The notes below the pieces were generated by a model, which did no database searches, was not told the origin of the DNA, and was given only the letters and a program-made list of their open reading frames with translations. A stretch of 40,492 bases of DNA from a virus. Taxonomy: Duplodnaviria; Heunggongvirae; Uroviricota; Caudoviricetes. Shown piece after piece: positions 2,795 to 28,451 of this stretch. The position numbers were made by a program, and so were the translations under genes. The stretch is taken from positions 1 to 40,492 of IMG/VR virus record IMGVR_UViG_2541047891_000004. One strand, written 5' to 3'. The stretch's first letter is position 1. The number at the start of each line of letters is the position of its first letter.

Positions 2795-5438
2795 TTGCAT
2801 ATTCCTTAGCCCAGCGGGGCAGTGATAACGTCTTAATAGCTGGCCATTCATCGGTATTGAGGCAGTCAGCCAGGGTTCGCAGATTGCGGTGATATTCCAG
2901 CTGACCTGCCAGTTTTGCTTCTTCGCCCATCATGAAAATTTCAACCGGATAACGTCCGCATTCAATAGTTGTGCTGGCGACCAGAAAAACGAAAGTTGGC
3001 TGCACTCCAAACTGTGCTTCATAACCGTCACTGTAGAATGCATCCTGAACGTGATAGCGGTAGTCGTAATAAGCGGTTTTGAATCGTTGAATATCCGCCG
3101 TAGTTTTCACGTCCATGATCCAGTGAAATTCAGGGATAATTTTGTCCGGACGGCACCGACACAAAATTCCTGTTTCAGGATCTTCCCAGTAAATTGATGA
3201 TTCAGCGTGTCCGGCGCTTTCAACAAGCCATTGCCCCAGCGGCAAAGCCATAACGCTTTGATACATGAGCTCAATTTTCCGGCTTTCTTCCGCAGTGATA
3301 ACCGTTTTTCCTGTGCTTGCGCATTTCATAAGAAACGCTTTCTCTTCTTCTTTTCCGGCGTTTGTACGGCGGTTAAATTCAGGTGCTACGATAAAGCGGT
3401 TACTGAATTCTTCCGGTTCAAGTACCCGGCAGTGGAAAGCGGTTCCTAAATCGAGCGTTTTTGTCTTTGTGGTGTCCACGGGGGCATTTTTACGCCACAA
3501 ATACAGTGCCGGAGTATCAGCAATGTCATCGAGCTGAGACTTACTGACACCGGGACCCGCGTGGTAATTCTCATTCGAAATTCCGTAATAAATACCTGGC
3601 TCTATGTCTTCTACGATTACGGGAGCTGCGACTTCGCCAGTTTCATCACTGCAATCGCGATGCGGATCGCTGCCAGCATTCTCATTGTGCGGATGTTCAG
3701 CGCCTTCCATTTCCACCGGATCATTTTCCTTGGCTTCAACCTGATTCTCTTCATCGAATGTTTCCTGGTATGTTGCGTCGCCCATCACCGCACCACAGTC
3801 AGGGCAGTTATCCCCGCCAGTCTGACCGCAGGCATTGCAGACTATTTCCGGTTCCTGTTGCACTACTGGCTCAGGTTGTTTCACATCCGGGCTGGTTTTT
3901 TCCGTTTCTGGCTGGTTCTGGTACACAGAATCGCGAGTCTGGATCCCCTTAACCCATTTCGGATCGTTCGGGTCGCTAATTCCGTCAACAAATTCACCAC
4001 GTGATGCAGCAAGCAATTTATCGGCATCGACAGGATTTTTTGATGGAATGTTTTTCCGGGCTTCATGGAGTTCTGCCCGCAGTTCCTGATATTTCGCATC
4101 AACAGAATTTACCTGTGACTGAGCATCCAGCGGCTGCGTGTCCTGATGATGTTCAGTTGCGTCCGGTTCCATTGTTTCAGCCTCTCCCTGTTCATCTGCC
4201 GTTGTTCCAGATGGTTGCGGTTTTTCTTCATCATCCTGTTTTCCTTCTTCTGTTACTCGCTGCGGCATCGGGGCCGAGGAGCGACCGCAGGCAATATCCA
4301 CGATTTCCGGATCAGGGTTGGCATGATCGGTTTCAGTCAGTACTTTGTTCAGATATTCAGTGACGTGTGCGGGGATGACCTCGATCCCAATTGGTGCTTC
4401 TTTCACGGACGCAACCACGATGGCGCGGGAATAATCCAGCCCGCCAGGCATGGTGATGAATTTGTCGCGGAAAACAGAAAAGGGTGGTTTATTTTCAGCG
4501 ATAATTTCCTCAATGCGTTTAGCGTGTGCCGGATGAAGGTTATAGATGTCCACGTCCATTGAACGGGCCAGTACGCCAGTGGCTACATCGCGCGCCAGTG
4601 ACGTCAGATCGTGGACGAAACCTTCGCCGCGATCGGTGAGGTTCCCGCCGCCAGCATTAGCACCGGAAGCCGTGCGAGTGATGCGTGAAACACGATTCCC
4701 TTTTCGCCATTCTTTTGTCAGAAGACCGCGATCAATGTGTTCGGTATCCAGCCAGGCTGAAATGAAATTCTTAAATTCATAGGGCTGATGTTTTTTCGTG
4801 ATAGAGAACACTGCCTTAATTGCATCAGTCAGGCGGAGCAGGGCGGCATTATCCAGAGTTGTCGGTTCTGCCATGCTGCGTATGGCCAACAGCAGATTCT
4901 GGACATAGCTGTTTTCCTGATCCATCTCAAGAGCAGTAATGTGTTCGCGTTGTTCACGGGTGGCATGATGCAGGTATTTCCGATTCCCGGCCGCATACGT
5001 AAAAATGTGCAGAAGACGCTGTGTGAACCGCAAAGTGGATACAGAAACTTCGCAATCCTGGCAATCCCCGTGAGCGTCTGCCAGTGTGTTTTCTTCCTGC
5101 CCTCCCGTCAGTTCTTCGGTTTCCTGAGCATTCTCCTGATGGTGAACGTCGTCTGGCGCTGCTCCCGATTTTAGTTCCCAGGTCATGGAGTCTTTGCTGA
5201 GTTGATAGCGTTCACTCCAGGTAAAATCGATCTCACCTTCAGGGGGCAGGTCATTAACGACAGGAAAATTCGTGGCAACAGCTTTAAAATAGCTGCTCAG
5301 TTTTTTACCTGACTTAACGATCAGGTAGTCCAGAGTGGCACAGGTCGATTCAAAATCGTCGCTTGCCCACAGGACGACGTCAGGTTCACCGGATGATTTT
5401 TTCGCTTTCCGTAACAGGAAGAGTGGTTTTGTGCTCAT
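2787..5438 (-). CDS. recE: Exodeoxyribonuclease VIII RecE (883 aa)
   Basis: [15 protein letters not shown]-terminus and C-terminal exonuclease region recognised as RecE; recE-recT pair intact. Confidence 0.9.
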
Positions 5439-5536
5439 TGTTTTTTAACCTCAACTCAGATTAAAATTACTGCGAGTGATGAATAAATGTCCCAGGTTCT
5501 TCACTCAGGCCTGCACGTTGTGCAGGCTTTCTTTTT

Positions 5537-5812
5537 TCAGATTTCACCTTTTAATTTCATTGCAATCAGAGTTGCCAGAAATCCGGCTTTTTTTTCTACG
5601 GGCAGATTCTTTCCGATGTGAACCAGACTCATTTTTGTGACACCTTCATCAAGTGTTTTTACGTTGCCTGATGGGCCGTCAATATCAACCACAGTGAATG
5701 GGGTTTCTTTATTTTCTGTTTTAATCACGTAGCCAATACGCTTTCCTTCCAGATTAACCTCGTGAACAATGTCATCGGTAGTTACAACAGTGACTTCATA
5801 ATTGGTAATCAT
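5537..5812 (-). CDS. racC: RacC-like protein (91 aa)
   Basis: 91-aa ORF in the Rac position between recE and ydaE. Confidence 0.7.
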   Translation of the reverse strand: MITNYEVTVVTTDDIVHEVNLEGKRIGYVIKTENKETPFTVVDIDGPSGNVKTLDEGVTKMSLVHIGKNLPVEKKAGFLATLIAMKLKGEI

Positions 5813-8310: not shown

Positions 8311-8384
8311 TTGCATTAGGCAATCCCTACCCTTATCGCATTAGGCATAGCCTATTGACATTTATGTTAGGCGTCGCCTAATAT
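8311..8384 (+). promoter_or_regulatory. OR-like operator cluster with putative pR (and divergent repressor-maintenance promoter)
   Basis: TTGACA 8355..8360, 18-nt spacer, TAATAT 8379..8384; perfect palindrome TTAGGCGTCGCCTAA 8367..8381; 8339..8360 is the exact reverse complement of 7696..7717. Confidence 0.65.
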
Positions 8385-11559: not shown

Positions 11560-11574
11560 TTGCCGGAGGCACCT

Positions 11575-11997
11575 ATGGCAAAAGTATTTACACCAGAAGA
11601 GCGGGAAAAAATTAAAGGGCAGGTTGTTGAACTTGTACGTCTGAGCGGTCGCGAGACGTTACGACAACTGGAAGCCAAGACAGGTGCGACAAGATATCTG
11701 ATGAGCATTCTCGCCAGGGAGCTGGTTGCCAGTGGTGATGTATACAACTCTGGCTACGGGTTATTCCCGTCTGAACAGGCCCGTAAGGACTGGCAAAACG
11801 CCCGCAAAAAACTCTCAAGGGCAAAGGTGAAAAAAACGGTTGTGGTTGATCCTGACCTTATCTGGTCATTACCTGACGGAGAAATACGTCGCTACGACAG
11901 GCGTCAGAACATAATCTGCCGTGAGTGCCGGAAGAGCGAAGTTATGCAGCGTGTACTGGCGTTTTATCAGGGGAATTTTGAGGAGGTGATGTTGTGA
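11575..11997 (+). CDS. Hypothetical phage protein (141 aa)
   Basis: ATG 11575 preceded by GGAGG; stop overlaps the next gene's GTG start. Confidence 0.5.
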   Translation: MAKVFTPEEREKIKGQVVELVRLSGRETLRQLEAKTGATRYLMSILARELVASGDVYNSGYGLFPSEQARKDWQNARKKLSRAKVKKTVVVDPDLIWSLPDGEIRRYDRRQNIICRECRKSEVMQRVLAFYQGNFEEVML

Positions 11998-12482
11998 GTG
12001 CGTCGGCTACCATTCTCGACATGTGCTGTGGCAGTCGCATGTTCTGGTTTGATAAGAATGACGAACGGGCGATATTTAGCGATATCAGAAAAGAAGAGCA
12101 CACATTGTGTGATGGACGACGCCTGATTATCTGTCCTGACCTGATAGCAGATTTTCGAGCATTACCATTTGCAGACGCATCGTTTCCGGTTGTTGTATTC
12201 GACCCTCCGCATCTTGAGCGTATTGGTGATAATGCCTGGATGGGAAAGAAATATGGACGGCTGAATAAAGATACCTGGCGTGATGATTTGCGGCAGGGAT
12301 TTAAAGAAGCCTTTCGTGTGTTGTGGCCACATGGCGTTCTGATTTTTAAATGGAATGAAACGCAAATACCTGTTCGCCAGATATTGGCACTGACCGACAG
12401 AAAGCCTGTTATCGGTCAACGAACAGGAAAGGGTGACAAGACCCACTGGATTCTTTTTATGAAGGAGGCATCCAGTGAGTAG
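11994..12482 (+). CDS. Putative small orphan DNA methyltransferase (N6-adenine type, 162 aa)
   Basis: GTG start with AGGAGG 7 nt upstream; motif I-like LDMCCGS and motif IV-like VVFDPPH. Confidence 0.5.
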   Translation: MSASATILDMCCGSRMFWFDKNDERAIFSDIRKEEHTLCDGRRLIICPDLIADFRALPFADASFPVVVFDPPHLERIGDNAWMGKKYGRLNKDTWRDDLRQGFKEAFRVLWPHGVLIFKWNETQIPVRQILALTDRKPVIGQRTGKGDKTHWILFMKEASSE

Positions 12483-15064: not shown

Positions 15065-15967
15065 ATGTATATGAGTCTTAGGTCTGAACGCACAAGGTGG
15101 GTGATGTTTTTGCCTTGTTCGGAAGCTGCCGTGGAATTTCGTCATGTTGTCGATTTAGTCTTTGGTGTGATGTGCCTCGAAAAGGCAGGCATCAATCCAG
15201 ATGATATTTCGATATATATAGATAGCCCTTCAATGAATTACGATGGTGCTTTTGCACTCGCTTCTAAATATCCTTTTAAGTCAAAACCATCAGCAGTTTT
15301 TTTTAATGACTTAAATGATAATACATATGATAACATAGTTATGTTTGTAACTGGTCATGGTGGCCCTCATGGACTTGATGCAAAGAAACCTATCCCACCA
15401 AGCCAATTACTGAAGGCTTTGAAGGAAGCCCCAAATCTTAAAAATGCTGTTGTTTATCTTGGGCAATGCTATGCCGGGACCTTTAATTTTGTAGGTGCTG
15501 GTAAACGGAACGAGTTTGAAGCCGATGTGATCTTAATCGGCGCGACTAATCTTAATGAAAGTCTTAGTTCTGGTACTTCAGAAACATTTGCTAATGGGGT
15601 GGTGTTTCCTTGGTCAGCAAATATTTTTCTTCTACATGTTTTTAAATGGATGTCATCTCCTACAGATATTGATGGTGATGGATTATACACTGTGATGGAT
15701 TCTTATAAACATGCAGGAATTTATACGAACTATGTTAATAAAAGAATTAAAAGCGAAGGTTTTAGCGATATAATTGATATGCATGCTGAATGCAATAGAC
15801 TCAAAGCTCTTGCCTCTATTGAAACAGGAGATTTTAATGTTGACTTTAAAAATAAAATGGAATTTGACGCTAAGAAATCTCAGTTTGACAATCTACTAAC
15901 TATACATCATACACATCAGGAGTGCTGGATTTTAAACTCACGCCCGGCACAAAAAATAGAGTTTTAG
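15065..15967 (+). CDS. Caspase-like (clan CD) cysteine peptidase domain protein (300 aa)
   Basis: Strand plus His-Gly (NIVMFVTGHGGPHG, His98) then strand plus Cys 37 residues later (AVVYLGQCYAG, Cys135); alternative start ATG 15071. Confidence 0.6.
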   Translation: MYMSLRSERTRWVMFLPCSEAAVEFRHVVDLVFGVMCLEKAGINPDDISIYIDSPSMNYDGAFALASKYPFKSKPSAVFFNDLNDNTYDNIVMFVTGHGGPHGLDAKKPIPPSQLLKALKEAPNLKNAVVYLGQCYAGTFNFVGAGKRNEFEADVILIGATNLNESLSSGTSETFANGVVFPWSANIFLLHVFKWMSSPTDIDGDGLYTVMDSYKHAGIYTNYVNKRIKSEGFSDIIDMHAECNRLKALASIETGDFNVDFKNKMEFDAKKSQFDNLLTIHHTHQECWILNSRPAQKIEF

Positions 15968-16207: not shown

Positions 16208-16363
16208 ATGAAGCAGCAAAAGGCGATGTTAATCGCCCTGATCGTCATCTGTTTAACCGTCATAGTGACGGCACTGGTAACGAGGAAAGACCTCTGCGAG
16301 GTGCGAATCCGAACCGGCCAGACGGAGGTCGCTGTCTTCACAGCTTACGAACCTGAGGAGTAA
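16208..16363 (+). CDS. hok: Hok/Gef-family type I toxin (51 aa)
   Basis: MKQQKAMLIALIVICLTVIVTALVTRKDLCEVRIRTGQTEVAVFTAYEPEE recognised as Hok family; in-frame upstream extension from 16151 occupies the mok-like leader. Confidence 0.85.
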   Translation: MKQQKAMLIALIVICLTVIVTALVTRKDLCEVRIRTGQTEVAVFTAYEPEE

Positions 16364-18616: not shown

Positions 18617-18692
<76 letters not shown>

Positions 18693-18695
18693 TAT

Positions 18696-18770
<75 letters not shown>

Positions 18771-19132
18771 GCATTTGAAACAAGCCTTATTGTATTGCGG
18801 CACTGGCGTATTTTTTTATTACGTGGGAGCAGGTTGTTTTGAAAAAGCATTCTGTTCTCTGGCTATGATTTGAGGCCGGGTGTAGCCTCAGTGCTGATTT
18901 TTTACGGCAGCAGAATGGTGCATTATCGGTGGAGATTTTGTATTTCCTGGCAGGGTCGGTGATGCATCATTCTGGTGTTGTAAAAGCACCGCAGAGGCGT
19001 TCCTCAGGGCGAGGGTGGTTTAAAGAGTCGGTTTAGCGGGAAACCACAGTATCCATACAGCACGGAATACTTCGGGAGGCACCCGACGCCTCGGTTTAAT
19101 AACAATTAAAAAATTCATCCCTTGCATTGACC

Positions 19133-21662: not shown

Positions 21663-22454
21663 ATGAGCGAGAAATTGAAGATCGTCTATCGCCCTTTACA
21701 AGAACTGTCTCCGTATGCACACAACGCCAGGACACACAGCACTGAGCAGGTGGCACAACTGGTAGAAAGCATTAAGCAATTCGGCTGGACTAATCCGGTG
21801 CTGATTGATGAAAAGGGCGAAATTATTGCTGGTCACGGTCGCGTTATGGCGGCTGAAGTGCTCAAAATGGATTCCATTCCGGTCATCGTTCTGTCTGGTT
21901 TGATGGATGATCAGAAAAAGGCGTACCGCCTGGCAGATAATCGCCTGCCGATGAATGCTGGCTGGGATGAAGATCTGTTACGGATGGAGCTGTCGGACCT
22001 AATCAATGCTGATTTTGATGTCTCCCTGACAGGCTTCAGCCCGACAGAAATTGATGAACTGTTGACGGATGTTTTGCCCGGTACAGAAAATGAGGAGGAG
22101 CCGTATACGACGAAAATTGATACACCTGTTTATGAGCCGTCAGGCGATAAACCGGATATCGGCGAACTGTACGACGATACGAAAACTCAGGAGCTGGTCA
22201 GCCGGATACGTTCGGCGTCCCTTGATCCTGATATCGAAAAATTCCTCCTGTGTGCGGCAGAACGCCACACAGTGTTTAATTTCAGCAGAATTGCGGACTA
22301 TTACGCTCACGCCCCCGCTGAAATTCAGTGTTTTTTCGAGGAGTCGGCACTGGTGATCATTGATTATCAGCAGGCTATTGAAAATGGATTTGTCCGGATG
22401 ACGCAGCGCATGGTGGAGATCATGCATGGTGGTGAGGAGGAGGAATATGCGTGA
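21663..22454 (+). CDS. ParB-like nuclease domain protein (263 aa)
   Basis: N-terminal ParB/Srx signature including IIAGHGR; C-terminal 150 aa unassigned. Confidence 0.7.
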   Translation: MSEKLKIVYRPLQELSPYAHNARTHSTEQVAQLVESIKQFGWTNPVLIDEKGEIIAGHGRVMAAEVLKMDSIPVIVLSGLMDDQKKAYRLADNRLPMNAGWDEDLLRMELSDLINADFDVSLTGFSPTEIDELLTDVLPGTENEEEPYTTKIDTPVYEPSGDKPDIGELYDDTKTQELVSRIRSASLDPDIEKFLLCAAERHTVFNFSRIADYYAHAPAEIQCFFEESALVIIDYQQAIENGFVRMTQRMVEIMHGGEEEEYA

Positions 22455-23379
22455 TGATTTTTGCGCCTTTATTCTGACTCACGGGCGACCGGACAAAGTT
22501 CTGACTTACCGGACGTTGCGTCGTGCTGGCTATACCGGGAAAATTTTTATCGTTGTTGATGATGAAGATAAGACACGGCATCAGTACATGGCTGAATTTG
22601 GTGAACAGGTGCTGGTGTTTTCCAAAGCCGATATCGCCAGTCGTTTTGACGAAGCCGATAATTTCTGTGACCGCCGCTCAATTTTTTACGCCCGTAATGC
22701 CTGTTTCGACCTGGCAAAACTGGTCGGGTGTAAATACTTCATTCAGCTCGATGATGATTATCACGAGTTTCAGTTTCGGGTGGATCGCAACTATGACCAG
22801 GCCTATTTTCCGATAAGGAAACTGGATGCGATCCTTTCTGAAATGCTGGCGTATTACGAATCAATACCTGCTCTTTCCATCGCTATGTCGCAGGGCGGGG
22901 ATTTTCTTGGTGACAATGGCGGCCATGCTTCATGGGTGAAACGCAAGGCAATGAACAGCTTTATCTGTTCGGTCGAGCGACCGTTCTCATTCATGGGGCG
23001 CATTAACGAGGATGTGAATACGTACACGAATCTCGGTCGCCGTGGTGAATTGTTTATGACGATCGGTGCTGTCCAGTTAGGGCAGAAACAGACGCAGAAA
23101 AACAGCGGCGGAATGACCGAGCTGTATCTGGATTCCGGAACCTACGTTAAAAGTTTTTACTCCGTCATGTATGCGCCGTCGTGCGTAAAAATCTCACTGA
23201 TGGGTGCCAGCCATAAACGCATTCACCATCAGGTCACCTGGAACAACGCTGCAGTAAAAATCCTTCACGAAAAATACAGGAAGAAGACACCCTGCATATC
23301 AATGGGGGTGACAAATGATTCCGTATTCGAAAGTCGAGTCTCTGGCAGCGTGCCGGATGACTGCACAACAAATAGCTGA
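22447..23379 (+). CDS. GT-A fold (family 2-like) glycosyltransferase-like protein, apparently soluble (310 aa)
   Basis: AFILTHGRPD and KIFIVVDDED N-terminal strands, then FYARNACFDLAKLVGCKYFIQLDDDY (ARN...DxD); GAGGAGGAGG RBS; 8-nt overlap with ParB-like gene. Confidence 0.55.
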   Translation: MRDDFCAFILTHGRPDKVLTYRTLRRAGYTGKIFIVVDDEDKTRHQYMAEFGEQVLVFSKADIASRFDEADNFCDRRSIFYARNACFDLAKLVGCKYFIQLDDDYHEFQFRVDRNYDQAYFPIRKLDAILSEMLAYYESIPALSIAMSQGGDFLGDNGGHASWVKRKAMNSFICSVERPFSFMGRINEDVNTYTNLGRRGELFMTIGAVQLGQKQTQKNSGGMTELYLDSGTYVKSFYSVMYAPSCVKISLMGASHKRIHHQVTWNNAAVKILHEKYRKKTPCISMGVTNDSVFESRVSGSVPDDCTTNS

Positions 23380-25948: not shown

Positions 25949-27355
25949 ATGGCTGATATATCAACACCCAACCTCGACTATAACGATATGCTGGAGGCGT
26001 GGGATATTAACGACGCATTGATGGGCGGTACGCTTGAAATGCGCAGGCAGGGGGAAAATTATCTCCCCAAATGGCCTAATGAAGATGAAGACGCTTATAA
26101 AAAACGCCTGTCTGTGGCTACGCTACTTCCTGTGTATGAAGAAAGCATCAAACAAAATATTGGGCGCATATTTGCAGAGCCGACAGTATTGAGTGAGGAA
26201 ACGCCGGAAAAAATCAGGGAATATGCAGAAAATATCGACATGGAGGGGAGCCGACTGGATGTGTGGGCGCAGCAATTTTTCAGTCTCGCATTTCAGTATG
26301 GTGTGGCACATGCGCTGGTGGACTATCCACGAACGGATATGAAAGAGATTCGGACAAAAGCCGATGAAAACGCGGCCGGTGGTCGCCCGTACGTTACGAT
26401 GCTGAATCCACGCCAGGTTATTGGATGGAAATCGAAAGTTGAAAAAGGGAAAGTTGTTCTCACTGATTTGCGTATAAAAGAGGTCATCATTATTGATGGT
26501 GATGATTTCGGGCAGAAGAAGGTGGAGCAGATCCGCCATATTATGCCCCGTCGAGTTGAAATTTATCGACGCAGCGAAGGTACTAATGGCGAATCTGTCT
26601 GGACGCTTCATGAGTCATGGAATACCAGCCGTGATGATATTCCTCTGGTAACACTGTATACGAAGAAAACAGGGTTTATGCGTGGTACACCGCCATTGCT
26701 TAATCTTGGCTTGCTGAATATCAAGCACTGGCAAAGCCAGAGCGAGCAGGACAATATTCTTCATGTTGCCCGCGTTCCATTGCTGGTGGCCTACGGGCTG
26801 GACAGGAATGAAGAACTGACGGTTGGTGCATCCACCGCTACGATTTTTGAGGACAGAACAAAAAATGGCCTCGAATATGTTGAACATAGTGGCGCAGCGA
26901 TAGAATCTGGCGAAACATCACTTGAGAAGCTGGAAAATCAGATGCGTCATGCCGGCGCTAAACTTCTGCGGGCTGAAAATACATCCACCAAATCTGTTGA
27001 TCAGACTAATGAAGAGCGGATGCAGGAACACTCGCCGCTTTATACAATGGCGAACTCCCTCGAAGATGCCCTCGATAATATTCTCCAGATAATGGCGGAA
27101 TGGAGCGGAGAGAGTTGCGGTGGCAATGTGGATGTGCGCACTGAACTGGATGTATCTGCCCAGGTGTTTGACTCATCCTCCGCGCTGGCTGTTCAGTCAT
27201 TGCGTCAGGGCGGTGATATACGTCAGATTGATGCGGTTCGGGTGTTGCAGGCGTTGAAATTTATCGATCAGGATTCCCGTCCAGAGGAAGTGATCGATGA
27301 ATTAAAAAATCAGAGTGTAATGCTGATGGAAATCAATGATGCAAACCGTGAATGA
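25949..27355 (+). CDS. Portal protein (468 aa)
   Basis: Size and position immediately after terL. Confidence 0.75.
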   Translation: MADISTPNLDYNDMLEAWDINDALMGGTLEMRRQGENYLPKWPNEDEDAYKKRLSVATLLPVYEESIKQNIGRIFAEPTVLSEETPEKIREYAENIDMEGSRLDVWAQQFFSLAFQYGVAHALVDYPRTDMKEIRTKADENAAGGRPYVTMLNPRQVIGWKSKVEKGKVVLTDLRIKEVIIIDGDDFGQKKVEQIRHIMPRRVEIYRRSEGTNGESVWTLHESWNTSRDDIPLVTLYTKKTGFMRGTPPLLNLGLLNIKHWQSQSEQDNILHVARVPLLVAYGLDRNEELTVGASTATIFEDRTKNGLEYVEHSGAAIESGETSLEKLENQMRHAGAKLLRAENTSTKSVDQTNEERMQEHSPLYTMANSLEDALDNILQIMAEWSGESCGGNVDVRTELDVSAQVFDSSSALAVQSLRQGGDIRQIDAVRVLQALKFIDQDSRPEEVIDELKNQSVMLMEINDANRE

Positions 27356-28451
27356 ACGGCTGCGTGATGAATCAATTGCTCATGCAGTCTGGATATCCCG
27401 CTATAGCACTGGTGTGGCTGCCAGAATGGTGAAAATACTGAATGACAGCGATGCGGAGCTTACAGCTCGCCTGCTGGTAGCACTGGACAGCCTCGATCCT
27501 GGTAGTTTTACCGTTACGCGCCTGGAGTCACTTCTGGCGAGTGTCAGAGAAGTTAACCGCGCTGCTATTAACAGCATGTTTACCAGTCTCTCCGGAGAGC
27601 TGAACGAGCTGGCAATTTATGAGGCTGGTTATCAGTTAAGTCTGTTTGATTCTCTGCTACCTGATTTTGTTGCTGATGTTCACCCTCTGGTTGGTATCTC
27701 TTCTGATGCACTTTACGCCGCTGCAATGGCGCGACCATTCCAGGGACGACTGCTCAGTGAGTGGGCCTCAGATCTTGAGGCGGATCGGCTCAGACGCATA
27801 ACAAATACGGTGCGTCAGGGTTTTTTGCTGGGGGATACCAATGAGCAGATCGCAAGAAAAATTCGGGGACATGTCAGTAAGGGATTTCAGGATGGTGCAT
27901 TGCAGATGAGCCGGGCTAATGCGGCCAGCATTGCAAAAACAGCGGTTGGACATCTTGCTGCTACTGCTCGTGAGAGTTTTGCACGCGCGAATAATGATTT
28001 GATTAAGGGTAAGCAATGGTTATCAACGCTTGATAATCGTACTACGCCACAATGTCGAATCAGGGATCGCCTCAAATATACGCTGGATAATAAACCTGTA
28101 GGTCACAGCGTGCCTTATTTGCAGGGGCCGGGAAAAATTCATTTCTGCTGCCGCTCAACGGAAACGTTCATTCTGAAATCAGCGAAGGAACTGGGTATTG
28201 ATGTTCGTGATATTTCCCCGGCTGAGCGGGCCAGCATGGATGGCGTGGTGGCCGGAGATACAACCTACAGGGAATGGTTTTTGCGCCAGCCTTACACCAG
28301 ACAAAAACAGATTGTGGGGGAAACCCGGGCAAAGCTGATTCGGGATGGCGGTATGTCGCCAGATGAATTTTACACCGATAAAGGCGAATGGCTGACACTG
28401 AAGCAACTCCGAGAGCGTGATGCACAGGCATTCAGAAAAGCAGGGATTTAA
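27336..28451 (+). CDS. Head morphogenesis / minor head protein (SPP1 gp7 / Mu F-like, 371 aa)
   Basis: Position after portal with overlapping start; family guessed from sequence character. Confidence 0.65.
   Translation: MMQTVNERLRDESIAHAVWISRYSTGVAARMVKILNDSDAELTARLLVALDSLDPGSFTVTRLESLLASVREVNRAAINSMFTSLSGELNELAIYEAGYQLSLFDSLLPDFVADVHPLVGISSDALYAAAMARPFQGRLLSEWASDLEADRLRRITNTVRQGFLLGDTNEQIARKIRGHVSKGFQDGALQMSRANAASIAKTAVGHLAATARESFARANNDLIKGKQWLSTLDNRTTPQCRIRDRLKYTLDNKPVGHSVPYLQGPGKIHFCCRSTETFILKSAKELGIDVRDISPAERASMDGVVAGDTTYREWFLRQPYTRQKQIVGETRAKLIRDGGMSPDEFYTDKGEWLTLKQLRERDAQAFRKAGI

What the first reader, a model, noticed from the sequence alone, without database searches (positions are those of the whole stretch)
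11994..12482. Small orphan DNA methyltransferase-like gene in the nin region
The 162-aa protein has a motif I-like LDMCCGS followed about 55 residues later by motif IV-like VVFDPPH (DPPH), an order seen in some amino-methyltransferases. It is very small for a methyltransferase with a target-recognition domain. Translationally coupled (GTGA overlap) to the preceding gene; it could be a self-protective anti-restriction methylase.
Basis: partly seen in the sequence, partly recalled or inferred. Interest (0 to 1): 0.4.

Follow-up and report, generated by a model that had tools for sequence, protein, structure and literature searches.

The report
Small prophage orphan methyltransferase gene
This is a real 162-residue SAM-dependent methyltransferase gene in the early operon of a Rac-like E. 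coli prophage; it belongs to a very large, already catalogued but apparently uncharacterised family of phage "orphan DNA methyltransferases", so it is ordinary, and what it methylates is still unproven.

Summary
The ORF at 11994-12482 (+), its GTG start, the GTGA overlap with the upstream gene, and the LDMCCGS and DPPH motifs are all present.

The window is a Rac-like prophage at ttcA in E. coli SC418, matched at 100% identity. The gene lies in the early rightward gene block, after the replication genes and before the Q-like antiterminator.

A deep-alignment AlphaFold model (pLDDT 94.7) has a class I Rossmann methyltransferase fold. DPPH follows strand 4 and is invariant in 89 diverse homologues. 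No target-recognition domain exists, and no conserved partner gene supplies one.

The family is already catalogued:
- phrog_954 "DNA methyltransferase" (E 2e-87).
- PADLOC "Type II MTase" and "orphan MTase" models.
- About 1006 of 5426 complete E. coli genomes.
- 254 phage records across several phyla, at 38-92% identity.

No curated Pfam DNA-methylase model reaches threshold, fold neighbours are generic, and I found no experimental paper. A DNA substrate is therefore inferred. The support is the amino-methyltransferase motif, weak YhdJ/N6_N4 profile hits, and frequent placement beside bona fide DNA methylases in replication modules.

Verdict: an already known kind of gene, low interest. The residual curiosity is a minimal DPPH enzyme without a recognition domain that is unusually conserved across phages.

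The parts
11994..12482 (+). 162-aa SAM-dependent methyltransferase gene (GTG start, TAG stop)
   Evidence: Searches give the ORF. phrog_954 matches at E 2.4e-87. PADLOC PDLC03288 matches at E 2.1e-73. The AF2 model has pLDDT 94.7 and a class I MTase fold.
11980..11986 (+). Shine-Dalgarno sequence GAGGAGG, 7 nt before the GTG start
   Evidence: Read directly from the sequence.
11994..11997 (+). GTGA start/stop overlap with the upstream DUF977 gene (translational coupling)
   Evidence: The coupling is present only in the closest E. coli relatives.
12015..12035 (+). Motif I, the SAM-binding loop LDMCCGS (residues 8-14), following strand 1
   Evidence: D9 is invariant and L8, C12 and G13 are at least 90% conserved in 89 diverse homologues. 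Strand 7-10 in the model precedes it.
12081..12083 (+). D30, the acidic residue at the end of strand 2 (motif II position; ribose contact is inferred)
   Evidence: Invariant in alignment A2. It ends strand 26-30 in the model.
12150..12155 (+). D53-F54, the motif III position
   Evidence: D53 is at least 90% conserved. Its role is inferred from general class I MTase knowledge.
12201..12212 (+). Motif IV, DPPH (residues 70-73), the putative catalytic tetrapeptide directly after strand 4
   Evidence: All four residues are invariant in 89 sequences and in 29 more distant ones. Strand 64-69 precedes it. In homologue P0188 the region aligns with the N-terminal part of the YhdJ-type model, where I expect its DPPY from memory.
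12279..12356 (+). Helix plus strand 5, 'RDDLRQGFKEAFRVLWPHGVLIFKWN' (residues 96-121; motifs V-VI; invariant R108 and W120)
   Evidence: This is the region matching Methyltransf_11.
11560..11997 (+). Upstream DUF977 gene (PGAP start 11575). It is co-translated here but is not a conserved partner.
   Evidence: PF06163 matches at E 1.2e-29. It is adjacent in only 8 of 80 viral loci.
8355..8384 (+). Best pR-like promoter match (TTGACA-18-TAATAT) ahead of the cro-like gene. It probably drives the operon that contains the methyltransferase.
   Evidence: This is a consensus scan only. The scan found no strong terminator-like site between it and 11994 on the + strand, and gene order comes. Operon membership is inferred.

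Best explanation
The gene encodes a stand-alone, minimal (about 155-residue core) SAM-dependent amino-methyltransferase of a phage-borne family.

Proposed mechanism, step by step:
1. It is transcribed with the replication genes from the early rightward promoter, so it is made during lytic growth and is silent in the lysogen.
2. It binds SAM through the LDMCCGS loop, D30 and D53.
3. It uses the invariant DPPH loop after strand 4 to position an exocyclic amino group of a flipped base, adenine N6 or cytosine N4.
4. It thereby methylates replicating phage DNA.
5. It has no target-recognition domain and no conserved partner, and its whole sequence is conserved across phyla. Its specificity is therefore probably very short or relaxed.
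6. The benefit is probably protection of progeny DNA from host restriction.

Shown here: the gene, its family, the fold, the motifs and the genomic contexts. Inferred: DNA as substrate, the modified base, the specificity, expression timing and the anti-restriction role.

For: **Active site.** D70, P71, P72 and H73 are invariant in 89 and in 29 diverse homologues and sit right after strand 4.

**Family labels.** phrog_954 'DNA methyltransferase' matches at E 2.4e-87. PADLOC MTase_II matches at E 2.1e-73 and oMTase at E 4e-49.

**Weak but recurrent profile similarity to DNA amino-MTases.**
- PF01555 N6_N4_Mtase hits 23 of 89 members.
- The YhdJ-type PRK11524 model hits 34 of 89, best E 1.2e-7.
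- In P0188, residues 40-116 align to model positions 14-84, which covers the DPPH site.

**Genomic context.**
- Immediate neighbours in 71 viral loci include lambda P, DnaB, SSB, RecT and PDDEXK genes.
- Six of those 131 neighbours are bona fide DNA methylases: 4 C5, 1 Dam PF05869, 1 MT-A70.
- A C5 methylase lies directly upstream in L086.
- An N6_N4 methylase lies one gene upstream in L161-L163.
- One member sits on a 5.9-kb microvirus-like contig with a Phage_F capsid gene.
- A few members carry N-terminal HTH-type extensions.

**Precedents.** Small phage DNA methylases without a separate recognition domain are known. PamA is 141 aa and targets GATC (PMC12435837). An MT-A70-family Serratia phage enzyme also targets GATC (PMC7556043).
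Against: - No curated DNA-methylase family reaches its threshold. The only Pfam hits for this protein are sub-threshold generic Methyltransf_11 and Methyltransf_25.
- The best structural neighbours are uncharacterised or small-molecule methyltransferases, plus the RNA m2G enzymes Trm11, TrmN, RsmC and Trm14. They are not DNA methylases.
- The most frequent NCBIfam hit is an archaeal model named only 'putative methyltransferase' (PRK14968, HemK-like by my recollection), in 62 of 89 members.
- His at the fourth position of motif IV is atypical. I found no paper describing a DPPH motif IV.
- There is no recognition domain and the protein is only mildly basic (pI 8.4).
- No experimental report for any family member was found in seven literature searches.
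- The database labels 'DNA methyltransferase' are predictions, not assays.
Confidence: 0.5

Rival explanations
1. It is an RNA amino-methyltransferase, for example m2G or m6A on tRNA or rRNA. It would modify a universally conserved host RNA to tune translation or to protect tRNAs from host anticodon nucleases.
For: - A profile of the family hits archaeal Trm11 weakly in the PDB, at E 0.35 over the motif IV region.
- One RefSeq genome names the gene 'TRM11 family methyltransferase'.
- Identity of 45-65% across phages of different phyla would fit a universally conserved substrate.
Against: - It has no THUMP, PUA or other RNA-binding domain.
- RsmD-type Pfam (Cons_hypoth95) hits only 3 of 89 members and UPF0020 only 1 of 89.
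- Gene neighbours are DNA replication, recombination and DNA methylase genes, not translation-related genes.
- Structural similarity to RNA enzymes is no stronger than to unrelated small-molecule methyltransferases.
Confidence: 0.15
2. It methylates a protein (such as a glutamine or lysine amide/amine, HemK-like) or a small molecule such as a nucleotide signal. It would then be a host-takeover or anti-defence factor unrelated to DNA modification.
For: - The most frequent curated hit is the archaeal model PRK14968, named only 'putative methyltransferase' and HemK-like by my recollection (62 of 89 members, best E 2.8e-6).
- Foldseek lists HemK, NRMT1 and NodS among its matches.
- Motif I (LD-CCG) resembles Methyltransf_11 more than the FxGxG of DNA amino-methylases.
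Against: - All these matches are far below family cut-offs (16-20 bits against cut-offs of 150-240 bits).
- The invariant DPPH after strand 4 is typical of enzymes acting on planar amino or amide nitrogen. In phages such enzymes are overwhelmingly DNA enzymes (general knowledge).
- No conserved neighbour suggests a metabolic or signalling pathway: there are 86 neighbour clusters in 71 loci.
Confidence: 0.12
3. In this prophage it works as a two-subunit enzyme. The translationally coupled DUF977 winged-helix-like protein would supply DNA recognition to the methyltransferase, which lacks a recognition domain.
For: - The GTGA overlap and strong Shine-Dalgarno sequence imply coupled synthesis.
- The enzyme has no recognition domain of its own.
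- The model shows no helices in residues 1-81, so one face of the sheet could need a partner (speculative).
Against: - DUF977 lies upstream in only 8 of 80 related viral loci, all close E. coli relatives.
- Neighbours fall into 86 clusters in 71 loci, with no conserved partner.
- Most family members, including those in Gram-positive phages and a microvirus-like contig, lack it.
- The DNA-binding nature of DUF977 was not tested here.
Confidence: 0.05

Closest known systems
phrog_954 'DNA methyltransferase', PADLOC PDLC03288 (MTase_II) and PDLC03730 (oMTase); NCBI name 'class I SAM-dependent methyltransferase'
   Same: It is a direct family member. Matches are E 2.4e-87 over residues 3-161, and E 2.1e-73 and 4e-49 over nearly full length. 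An identical gene is in RefSeq.
   Different: Nothing differs structurally. This copy lacks the roughly 50-residue variable N-terminal extension of many phage members: the phrog profile is 229 positions and the match begins at position 50. The family label is a prediction, and I found no assay.
PamA (S. aureus phage mPhi11), and the phage Dam (PF05869) and bacterial MT-A70 small orphan methylases
   Same: These are tiny phage-encoded orphan amino-methyltransferases without a separate recognition domain. PamA is 141 aa with NPPY at residues 64-67 (PMC12435837). An MT-A70-family Serratia phage enzyme was shown to methylate GATC (PMC7556043). They occupy similar early-region positions, and members sometimes sit next to the family studied here.
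   Different: There is no detectable sequence relationship. PF05869 and PF05063 were not among the hits for any of 89 members. The motif here is DPPH, not NPPY or DPPW. The specificity of the family studied here is unknown.
Beta-class N6/N4 DNA methyltransferases (Pfam N6_N4_Mtase PF01555; E. coli YhdJ type, PRK11524; M.EcoGII)
   Same: There is weak profile similarity from motif III through motif VI, covering the (D)PP(Y/H) site. M.EcoGII is also prophage-borne, silent in lysogens and non-specific (PMC5778455), which makes it a functional model for an enzyme with little specificity.
   Different: Those enzymes are circularly permuted (motif IV first, motif I last), have a central recognition domain and are about 230-350 aa. 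Here motif I comes first and there is no recognition domain. All matches are below the curated thresholds.
m2G RNA methyltransferases Trm11, TrmN, Trm14 and RsmC
   Different: They carry THUMP or other N-terminal RNA-binding domains that are absent here. Sequence identity is 14-20%. No curated family hit was obtained.
Generic Methyltransf_11 and Methyltransf_25 class I methyltransferases (e.g. PH0226, PDB 1ve3)
   Different: I know of no invariant DPP(aromatic/His) tetrapeptide after strand 4 in those enzymes (from memory, not tested here). The protein's scores are below the gathering thresholds (20.1 against 21.2 bits; 17.7 against 27 bits).

Membership tests
Class I (Rossmann-fold) SAM-dependent methyltransferase superfamily | Seven-stranded beta sheet fold with a late beta hairpin | tested here: met
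Class I (Rossmann-fold) SAM-dependent methyltransferase superfamily | Glycine-rich SAM loop after strand 1 and an acidic residue at the end of strand 2 | tested here: met
   LDMCCGS lies at residues 8-14, with D9 invariant and G13 at least 90% conserved. D30 is invariant at the end of strand 26-30.
Amino-methyltransferases (N6-A or N4-C DNA, m2G RNA, Gln-N5 protein) | (D/N/S)PP(Y/F/W) tetrapeptide immediately after strand 4 | tested here: inconclusive
   DPPH at residues 70-73 is invariant in 89 and in 29 sequences and follows strand 64-69. The fourth residue is His, not Y, F or W. I found no published DPPH motif IV.
DNA amino-methyltransferases (Type II or orphan, gamma-like motif order) | Match to a curated DNA-methylase model (PF01555, PF02384, PF02086, PF05869, PF05063, PF13651) above threshold | tested here: not met
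   This protein gave no such hit. Across 89 members there were only weak PF01555 hits (23 members, best E 1e-3) and none for the other models. The YhdJ-type NCBIfam model was hit by 34 of 89 members, at most about 16 bits where inspected (P0188), against a cut-off of 292 bits.
DNA amino-methyltransferases (Type II or orphan, gamma-like motif order) | A target-recognition domain | tested here: not met
   The conserved core is about 155 aa and consists of the catalytic fold only. N- and C-terminal extensions in relatives are variable and unrelated to each other. No conserved neighbouring gene could supply recognition.
DNA amino-methyltransferases (Type II or orphan, gamma-like motif order) | Demonstrated transfer of methyl groups to DNA | not testable with these tools
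   This needs expression plus SMRT or nanopore sequencing or LC-MS. No published assay for the family was found.
phrog_954 / PADLOC PDLC03288 phage methyltransferase family | Full-length significant match to the family profile | tested here: met
   E 2.4e-87 over residues 3-161. E 2.1e-73 over residues 6-159 against profile positions 3-163 of 169.
Orphan (solitary) methyltransferase | No cognate restriction endonuclease adjacent | tested here: met
   Flanking genes in the window are DUF977, DUF1627 and small hypothetical proteins. No restriction-endonuclease family appears among the families listed (25 of 35) for the 131 immediate neighbours. One HNH gene in L161 lies next to the terminase, a typical phage packaging HNH position from general knowledge.
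Trm11 / RsmD-type m2G RNA methyltransferases | THUMP or other RNA-binding module, or a curated family match | tested here: not met
   No extra domain is present. Cons_hypoth95 hits 3 of 89 members and UPF0020 hits 1 of 89, both weakly. No Trm11, RsmD or TrmN model appears among the 25 of 29 NCBIfam families listed.

The most novel reading that the evidence does not exclude
The family may not be a conventional site-specific DNA methylase. It could be a minimal amino-methyltransferase without a recognition domain, built around an undescribed invariant DPPH catalytic loop. It keeps about 45-65% identity across temperate phages of Proteobacteria, Firmicutes, Actinobacteria, Bacteroidetes and Verrucomicrobia, and it occurs on a microvirus-like contig. 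On this reading it acts on a universal target. That target could be DNA in any sequence context, perhaps single-stranded or replicating DNA, or a conserved non-DNA host molecule.
Probability: 0.3. Interest if true: 0.5.

Novelty: already known. Interest (0 to 1): 0.2.

Why it matters
For this window it matters little. The gene is an already annotated member of a catalogued phage methyltransferase family that roughly one in five complete E. coli genomes carries.

The wider point is modest but real. A very abundant family is labelled 'DNA methyltransferase' in phage and defence databases without, as far as I could find, any biochemical test. It spans thousands of sequence clusters and phages of at least five phyla.

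If it proves to be a 155-residue DNA methylase with relaxed specificity, it would be among the smallest known. It would also be a compact tool in the manner of M.EcoGII or Hia5. If it targets RNA or protein instead, many phage annotations would need correcting.

A practical by-product is that the RefSeq start codon for this copy is probably wrong and removes the SAM-binding loop.

Tried and rejected
1. **Shallow-alignment AlphaFold run.** Using 38 close homologues gave pLDDT 55.6. I discarded it and repeated the run with 89 diverse sequences.
2. **afdb50 fold library.** It was not available. The BFVD viral library gave only one true relative plus generic methyltransferases.
3. **DUF977 as a recognition subunit.** Rejected: it is adjacent in only 8 of 80 loci, and there is no conserved neighbour at all.
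4. **Link to the non-specific methylase of Serratia phage OS31.** I tested whether phiOS31_p25 (PMC7556043) belongs to this family. It is a 342-aa protein upstream of the lysis genes, so it is not the same family.
5. **Link to M.EcoGI/M.EcoGII of O104:H4.** These are 349-aa beta-class enzymes, so they are not the same family.
6. **Papers not held.** Fang et al. 2012 (O104:H4 methylome) and Murphy et al. 2013 (phage orphan methylases) are not in the library. I could not check whether REBASE names this gene.
7. **Literature searches.** Searches for a 'DPPH' motif IV, for DUF977 or Rac prophage methyltransferases, and for methylases lacking a recognition domain found nothing on this family.
8. 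**Second viral-contig scan.** It gave no extra microvirus examples.
9. **Microvirus-like contig L085.** It has no terminal repeat, so completeness and circularity are unproven.
10. **Promoter and terminator scan.** Promoter counts were at the level expected by chance (10 found against 8.8 expected). Terminator-like sites were about twice the shuffle mean (14 against 7.4). I saw no gene-specific promoter for this gene.

Full report
**Where the window comes from**

The 489-bp region is 100% identical to E. coli SC418 chromosome NZ_LR778147.1. The RefSeq annotation shows that the window is a Rac-like prophage integrated beside ttcA. Its left arm carries intR, xisR, ralR, recT, recE and kilR.

The rightward early block follows a repressor/cro-like pair. 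Its gene order is ydaT, ydaU (DUF1376, replication), ydaV (IstB/DnaC-like), DUF1627, DUF977, the methyltransferase and several small unknown genes. It continues with DUF551, hokD, DUF1367, YbcO, a Q-like antiterminator, two tRNAs, lysis genes, ParB_N, a glycosyltransferase-like gene, terminase and structural genes.

The gene therefore sits where lambda has its nin region, but none of lambda's nin genes flank it.

**Checking the observation**

- The ORF at 11994-12482 (+) is present. It starts with GTG and encodes 162 aa.
- GAGGAGG lies at 11980-11986.
- The upstream DUF977 ORF stops at TGA 11995-11997, which gives the GTGA overlap.
- LDMCCGS is residues 8-14, and VVFDPPH is residues 67-73.
- The gene is real. 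phrog_954 matches at E 2.4e-87. There are 7845 homologous 90%-identity clusters and 2014 50%-identity clusters.
- PGAP begins this copy at M16 (window 12039). That start deletes motif I. Residues L8, D9, C11, C12 and R15 are invariant in close homologues, and all profile matches start at residue 3-6. The GTG start is therefore better.

**What the protein is**

Pfam gives only sub-threshold generic hits: Methyltransf_11 at 20.1 bits against a cut-off of 21.2, and Methyltransf_25 at 17.7 against 27. NCBIfam gives nothing near its cut-offs. Sequence search of the PDB gives nothing for the single sequence. A family profile gives only PH0226 at E 4e-5 and a marginal Trm11 hit.

A first AlphaFold run with close homologues failed, at pLDDT 55.6. 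A run with 89 diverse homologues gave pLDDT 94.7 and pTM 0.89. That model has these features:

- Strand 1 (residues 7-10) is followed by the CCGS loop.
- Strand 2 (26-30) ends at invariant D30.
- A beta hairpin spans 34-46.
- Strand 4 (64-69) is followed directly by DPPH.
- A long helix (95-109) leads into strand 5 (110-121).
- A terminal beta pair covers 140-144 and 150-156.

The fold is therefore settled, but fold comparison does not identify the substrate. DSSP on the model shows no helices before residue 82, an unusually stripped-down N-terminal half. I could not inspect the coordinates to take this further.

**Conserved residues**

D9, D30, R32, P48, D70, P71, P72, H73, R108 and W120 are invariant in 89 sequences that are 40-93% identical to the query. 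The same DPPH is invariant in a second set centred on a distant member.

An invariant D-P-P-aromatic/His tetrapeptide directly after strand 4 is the signature of methyltransferases acting on exocyclic or amide nitrogen. This rests on established knowledge of motif IV in N6-A and N4-C DNA, m2G RNA and HemK-type enzymes. The His is atypical, and I found no paper describing DPPH as a motif IV.

**Family and distribution**

- The family is catalogued. PHROGs calls it 'DNA methyltransferase'. PADLOC has two matching models, 'Type II methyltransferase' and 'orphan methyltransferase'. NCBI names it 'class I SAM-dependent methyltransferase', and once 'TRM11 family'.
- It occurs in 1006 of 5426 complete E. 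coli genomes, with up to five copies per genome.
- It occurs in 254 phage records. Identities to the query include Salmonella Oslo 84%, Pectobacterium ZF40 74%, Corynebacterium and Gordonia phages 64-65%, and Acinetobacter 59%.
- Further identities from the same search are Bacteroides and Porphyromonas 53-57%, Listeria A006 52%, Akkermansia 52%, Streptococcus T12 47% and a Helicobacter-associated phage 38.5%.
- That level of conservation over the whole length, across phyla, is high for a phage accessory gene.
- Extensions at either end are variable and unrelated. The 248-aa enterobacterial forms look like read-through fusions to the downstream coiled-coil gene.

**Is there a partner or a recognition module?**

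There is not. DUF977 precedes the gene in only 8 of 80 viral loci. The immediate neighbours in 71 loci fall into 86 clusters. The translational coupling seen here is local.

**Evidence bearing on the substrate**

For DNA:

1. Members give weak but recurrent hits to DNA amino-methylase profiles. PF01555 hits 23 of 89. The YhdJ-type PRK11524 model hits 34 of 89, best E 1.2e-7. In P0188, residues 40-116 align to model positions 14-84, which covers the DPPH site.
2. Gene context is the replication and recombination module. Six of 131 immediate neighbours are bona fide DNA methylases: four C5, one Dam PF05869 and one MT-A70.
3. In more distant contexts, a C5 methylase is directly upstream in L086. 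An N6_N4 methylase is one gene upstream in L161-L163.
4. One member lies on a 5.9-kb contig with a Microviridae capsid gene.
5. Very small phage DNA methylases without a separate recognition domain are experimentally established. PamA is 141 aa, has NPPY at 64-67 and targets GATC (PMC12435837). An MT-A70-family Serratia phage enzyme also targets GATC (PMC7556043).

Against DNA:

1. No curated DNA-methylase model passes threshold.
2. The most frequent curated hit is an archaeal model named only 'putative methyltransferase' (PRK14968, HemK-like by my recollection), in 62 of 89 members.
3. RNA m2G enzymes are as close structurally as any DNA enzyme.
4. The pI is only 8.4.
5. No assay was found in the literature.

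Studies of lysogen methylomes report that prophage orphan methylases are generally silent (PMC8597746; PMC4659465; PMC6602927). Existing methylomes would therefore not reveal its activity.

**Most likely mechanism**

The most likely product is a stand-alone amino-methyltransferase made with the replication genes from the early rightward promoter. The best pR-like match is at 8355-8384. The consensus scan found no strong terminator-like site between it and the gene on the + strand.

The enzyme would methylate adenine N6 or cytosine N4 in replicating phage DNA. Specificity is probably short or relaxed, because there is no recognition domain and the whole sequence is conserved across phages of hosts with very different restriction repertoires. 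The benefit would be protection from restriction.

I put this at about 0.5. The fold and the amino-methyltransferase character are much more secure, at about 0.9. The rivals are an RNA target (0.15), a protein or small-molecule target (0.12) and a DUF977-dependent two-subunit enzyme (0.05).

**Novelty and verdict**

The gene is identical to an annotated RefSeq gene and belongs to a family already present in PHROGs, PADLOC and NCBI naming. As a finding it is already known and ordinary.

What remains open is biochemical. The family seems never to have been assayed, its catalytic tetrapeptide is an undescribed variant, and it would be among the smallest nucleic-acid methyltransferases if confirmed. 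Interest is 0.2.

**Side observations**

- The ParB_N gene (21666-22454) and the overlapping gene at 22450-23379 form a pair directly upstream of the terminase. The second gene matches the TET-associated glycosyltransferase family at E 1.2e-35, yet RefSeq calls it 'hypothetical'. The same glycosyltransferase-like gene recurs in phages of Lactobacillus, Nocardia, Vibrio and Porphyromonas and in the archaeal virus HHTV-2. A ParB-like gene is annotated beside it in several of those records. No TET-like gene is annotated in the window.
- A 278-300-aa ORF in a 31-39% GC island (15065/15131-15967) weakly matches Peptidase_C13 and has His and Cys motifs that I read as caspase-like. It looks like a moron, possibly a defence gene.

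Noticed in passing
window 12039 vs 11994: RefSeq/PGAP starts this copy of the methyltransferase at ATG 12039 (M16; 147 aa, WP_263576085.1). That start removes the conserved SAM-binding loop LDMCCGS. In other genomes the annotated methyltransferase and DUF977 genes both lie under the full-length match, consistent with the upstream start. This is probably a start-codon miscall.
   Followed up: yes
window 21666-22454 (+) and 22450-23379 (+): A ParB_N-domain gene overlaps a 309-aa gene that matches Pfam TAGT (TET-associated glycosyltransferase) at E 1.2e-35. RefSeq calls the second gene 'hypothetical'. The pair sits just upstream of the small and large terminase genes. Homologues of the glycosyltransferase-like gene occur in phages of Lactobacillus, Nocardia, Vibrio and Porphyromonas and in the archaeal virus HHTV-2, with a ParB-like gene annotated beside it in several. 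No TET or hydroxymethylase gene is annotated in the window, so its substrate is unclear. It may be a DNA-modification or packaging-linked module.
   Followed up: partly
window 15065-15967 (+) (PGAP start 15131): A 278-300-aa ORF lies in a low-GC island (31-39% GC against about 50% around it). It weakly matches Peptidase_C13 (E 4e-5). By eye it has caspase/legumain-like 'GHGGPHG' (His) and 'GQCYAG' (Cys) motifs. It looks like a horizontally acquired moron, possibly a defence or abortive-infection protease.
   Followed up: partly
window 26001-27437 (+): The 478-aa gene immediately after the large terminase, where a portal gene is expected, is annotated 'anti-CBASS protein Acb1 family protein'. 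The position suggests a portal protein, so the name may be misleading.
   Followed up: no
L085 (ENA ERZ893784 k147_2848839), gene at 5326-5781: A 151-aa member of the same methyltransferase family (44% identical) lies on a 5.9-kb contig. The only other recognisable gene on it is a Microviridae major capsid gene (Phage_F). An accessory methyltransferase in such a small, presumably ssDNA, phage genome is unusual. The contig has no terminal repeat, so completeness is unproven.
   Followed up: partly
P0013, P0068, P0101 and similar (248-251 aa); P0004 (279 aa): In many Enterobacteriaceae the methyltransferase is fused at its C-terminus to about 90 extra residues. These resemble the coiled-coil start of the downstream Ead/Ea22-like or DUF551-type gene. 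This looks like a read-through fusion and is not a recognition domain.
   Followed up: partly
L033 5486-7777; L086 966-2165; L161 4811-5656: Related phages carry clusters of methylase genes. Examples beside or one gene from the small methyltransferase are a 764-aa ORF with by-eye C5 motifs (possibly one of the four PF00145 hits), a 399-aa C5 methylase and a 281-aa N6_N4 methylase.
   Followed up: partly
window 16208-16363 and 18619-18772: A hokD-type type I toxin gene lies in the early-right region. A tRNA-Thr and tRNA-Gly pair lies downstream of the Q-like antiterminator (RefSeq annotation).
   Followed up: no
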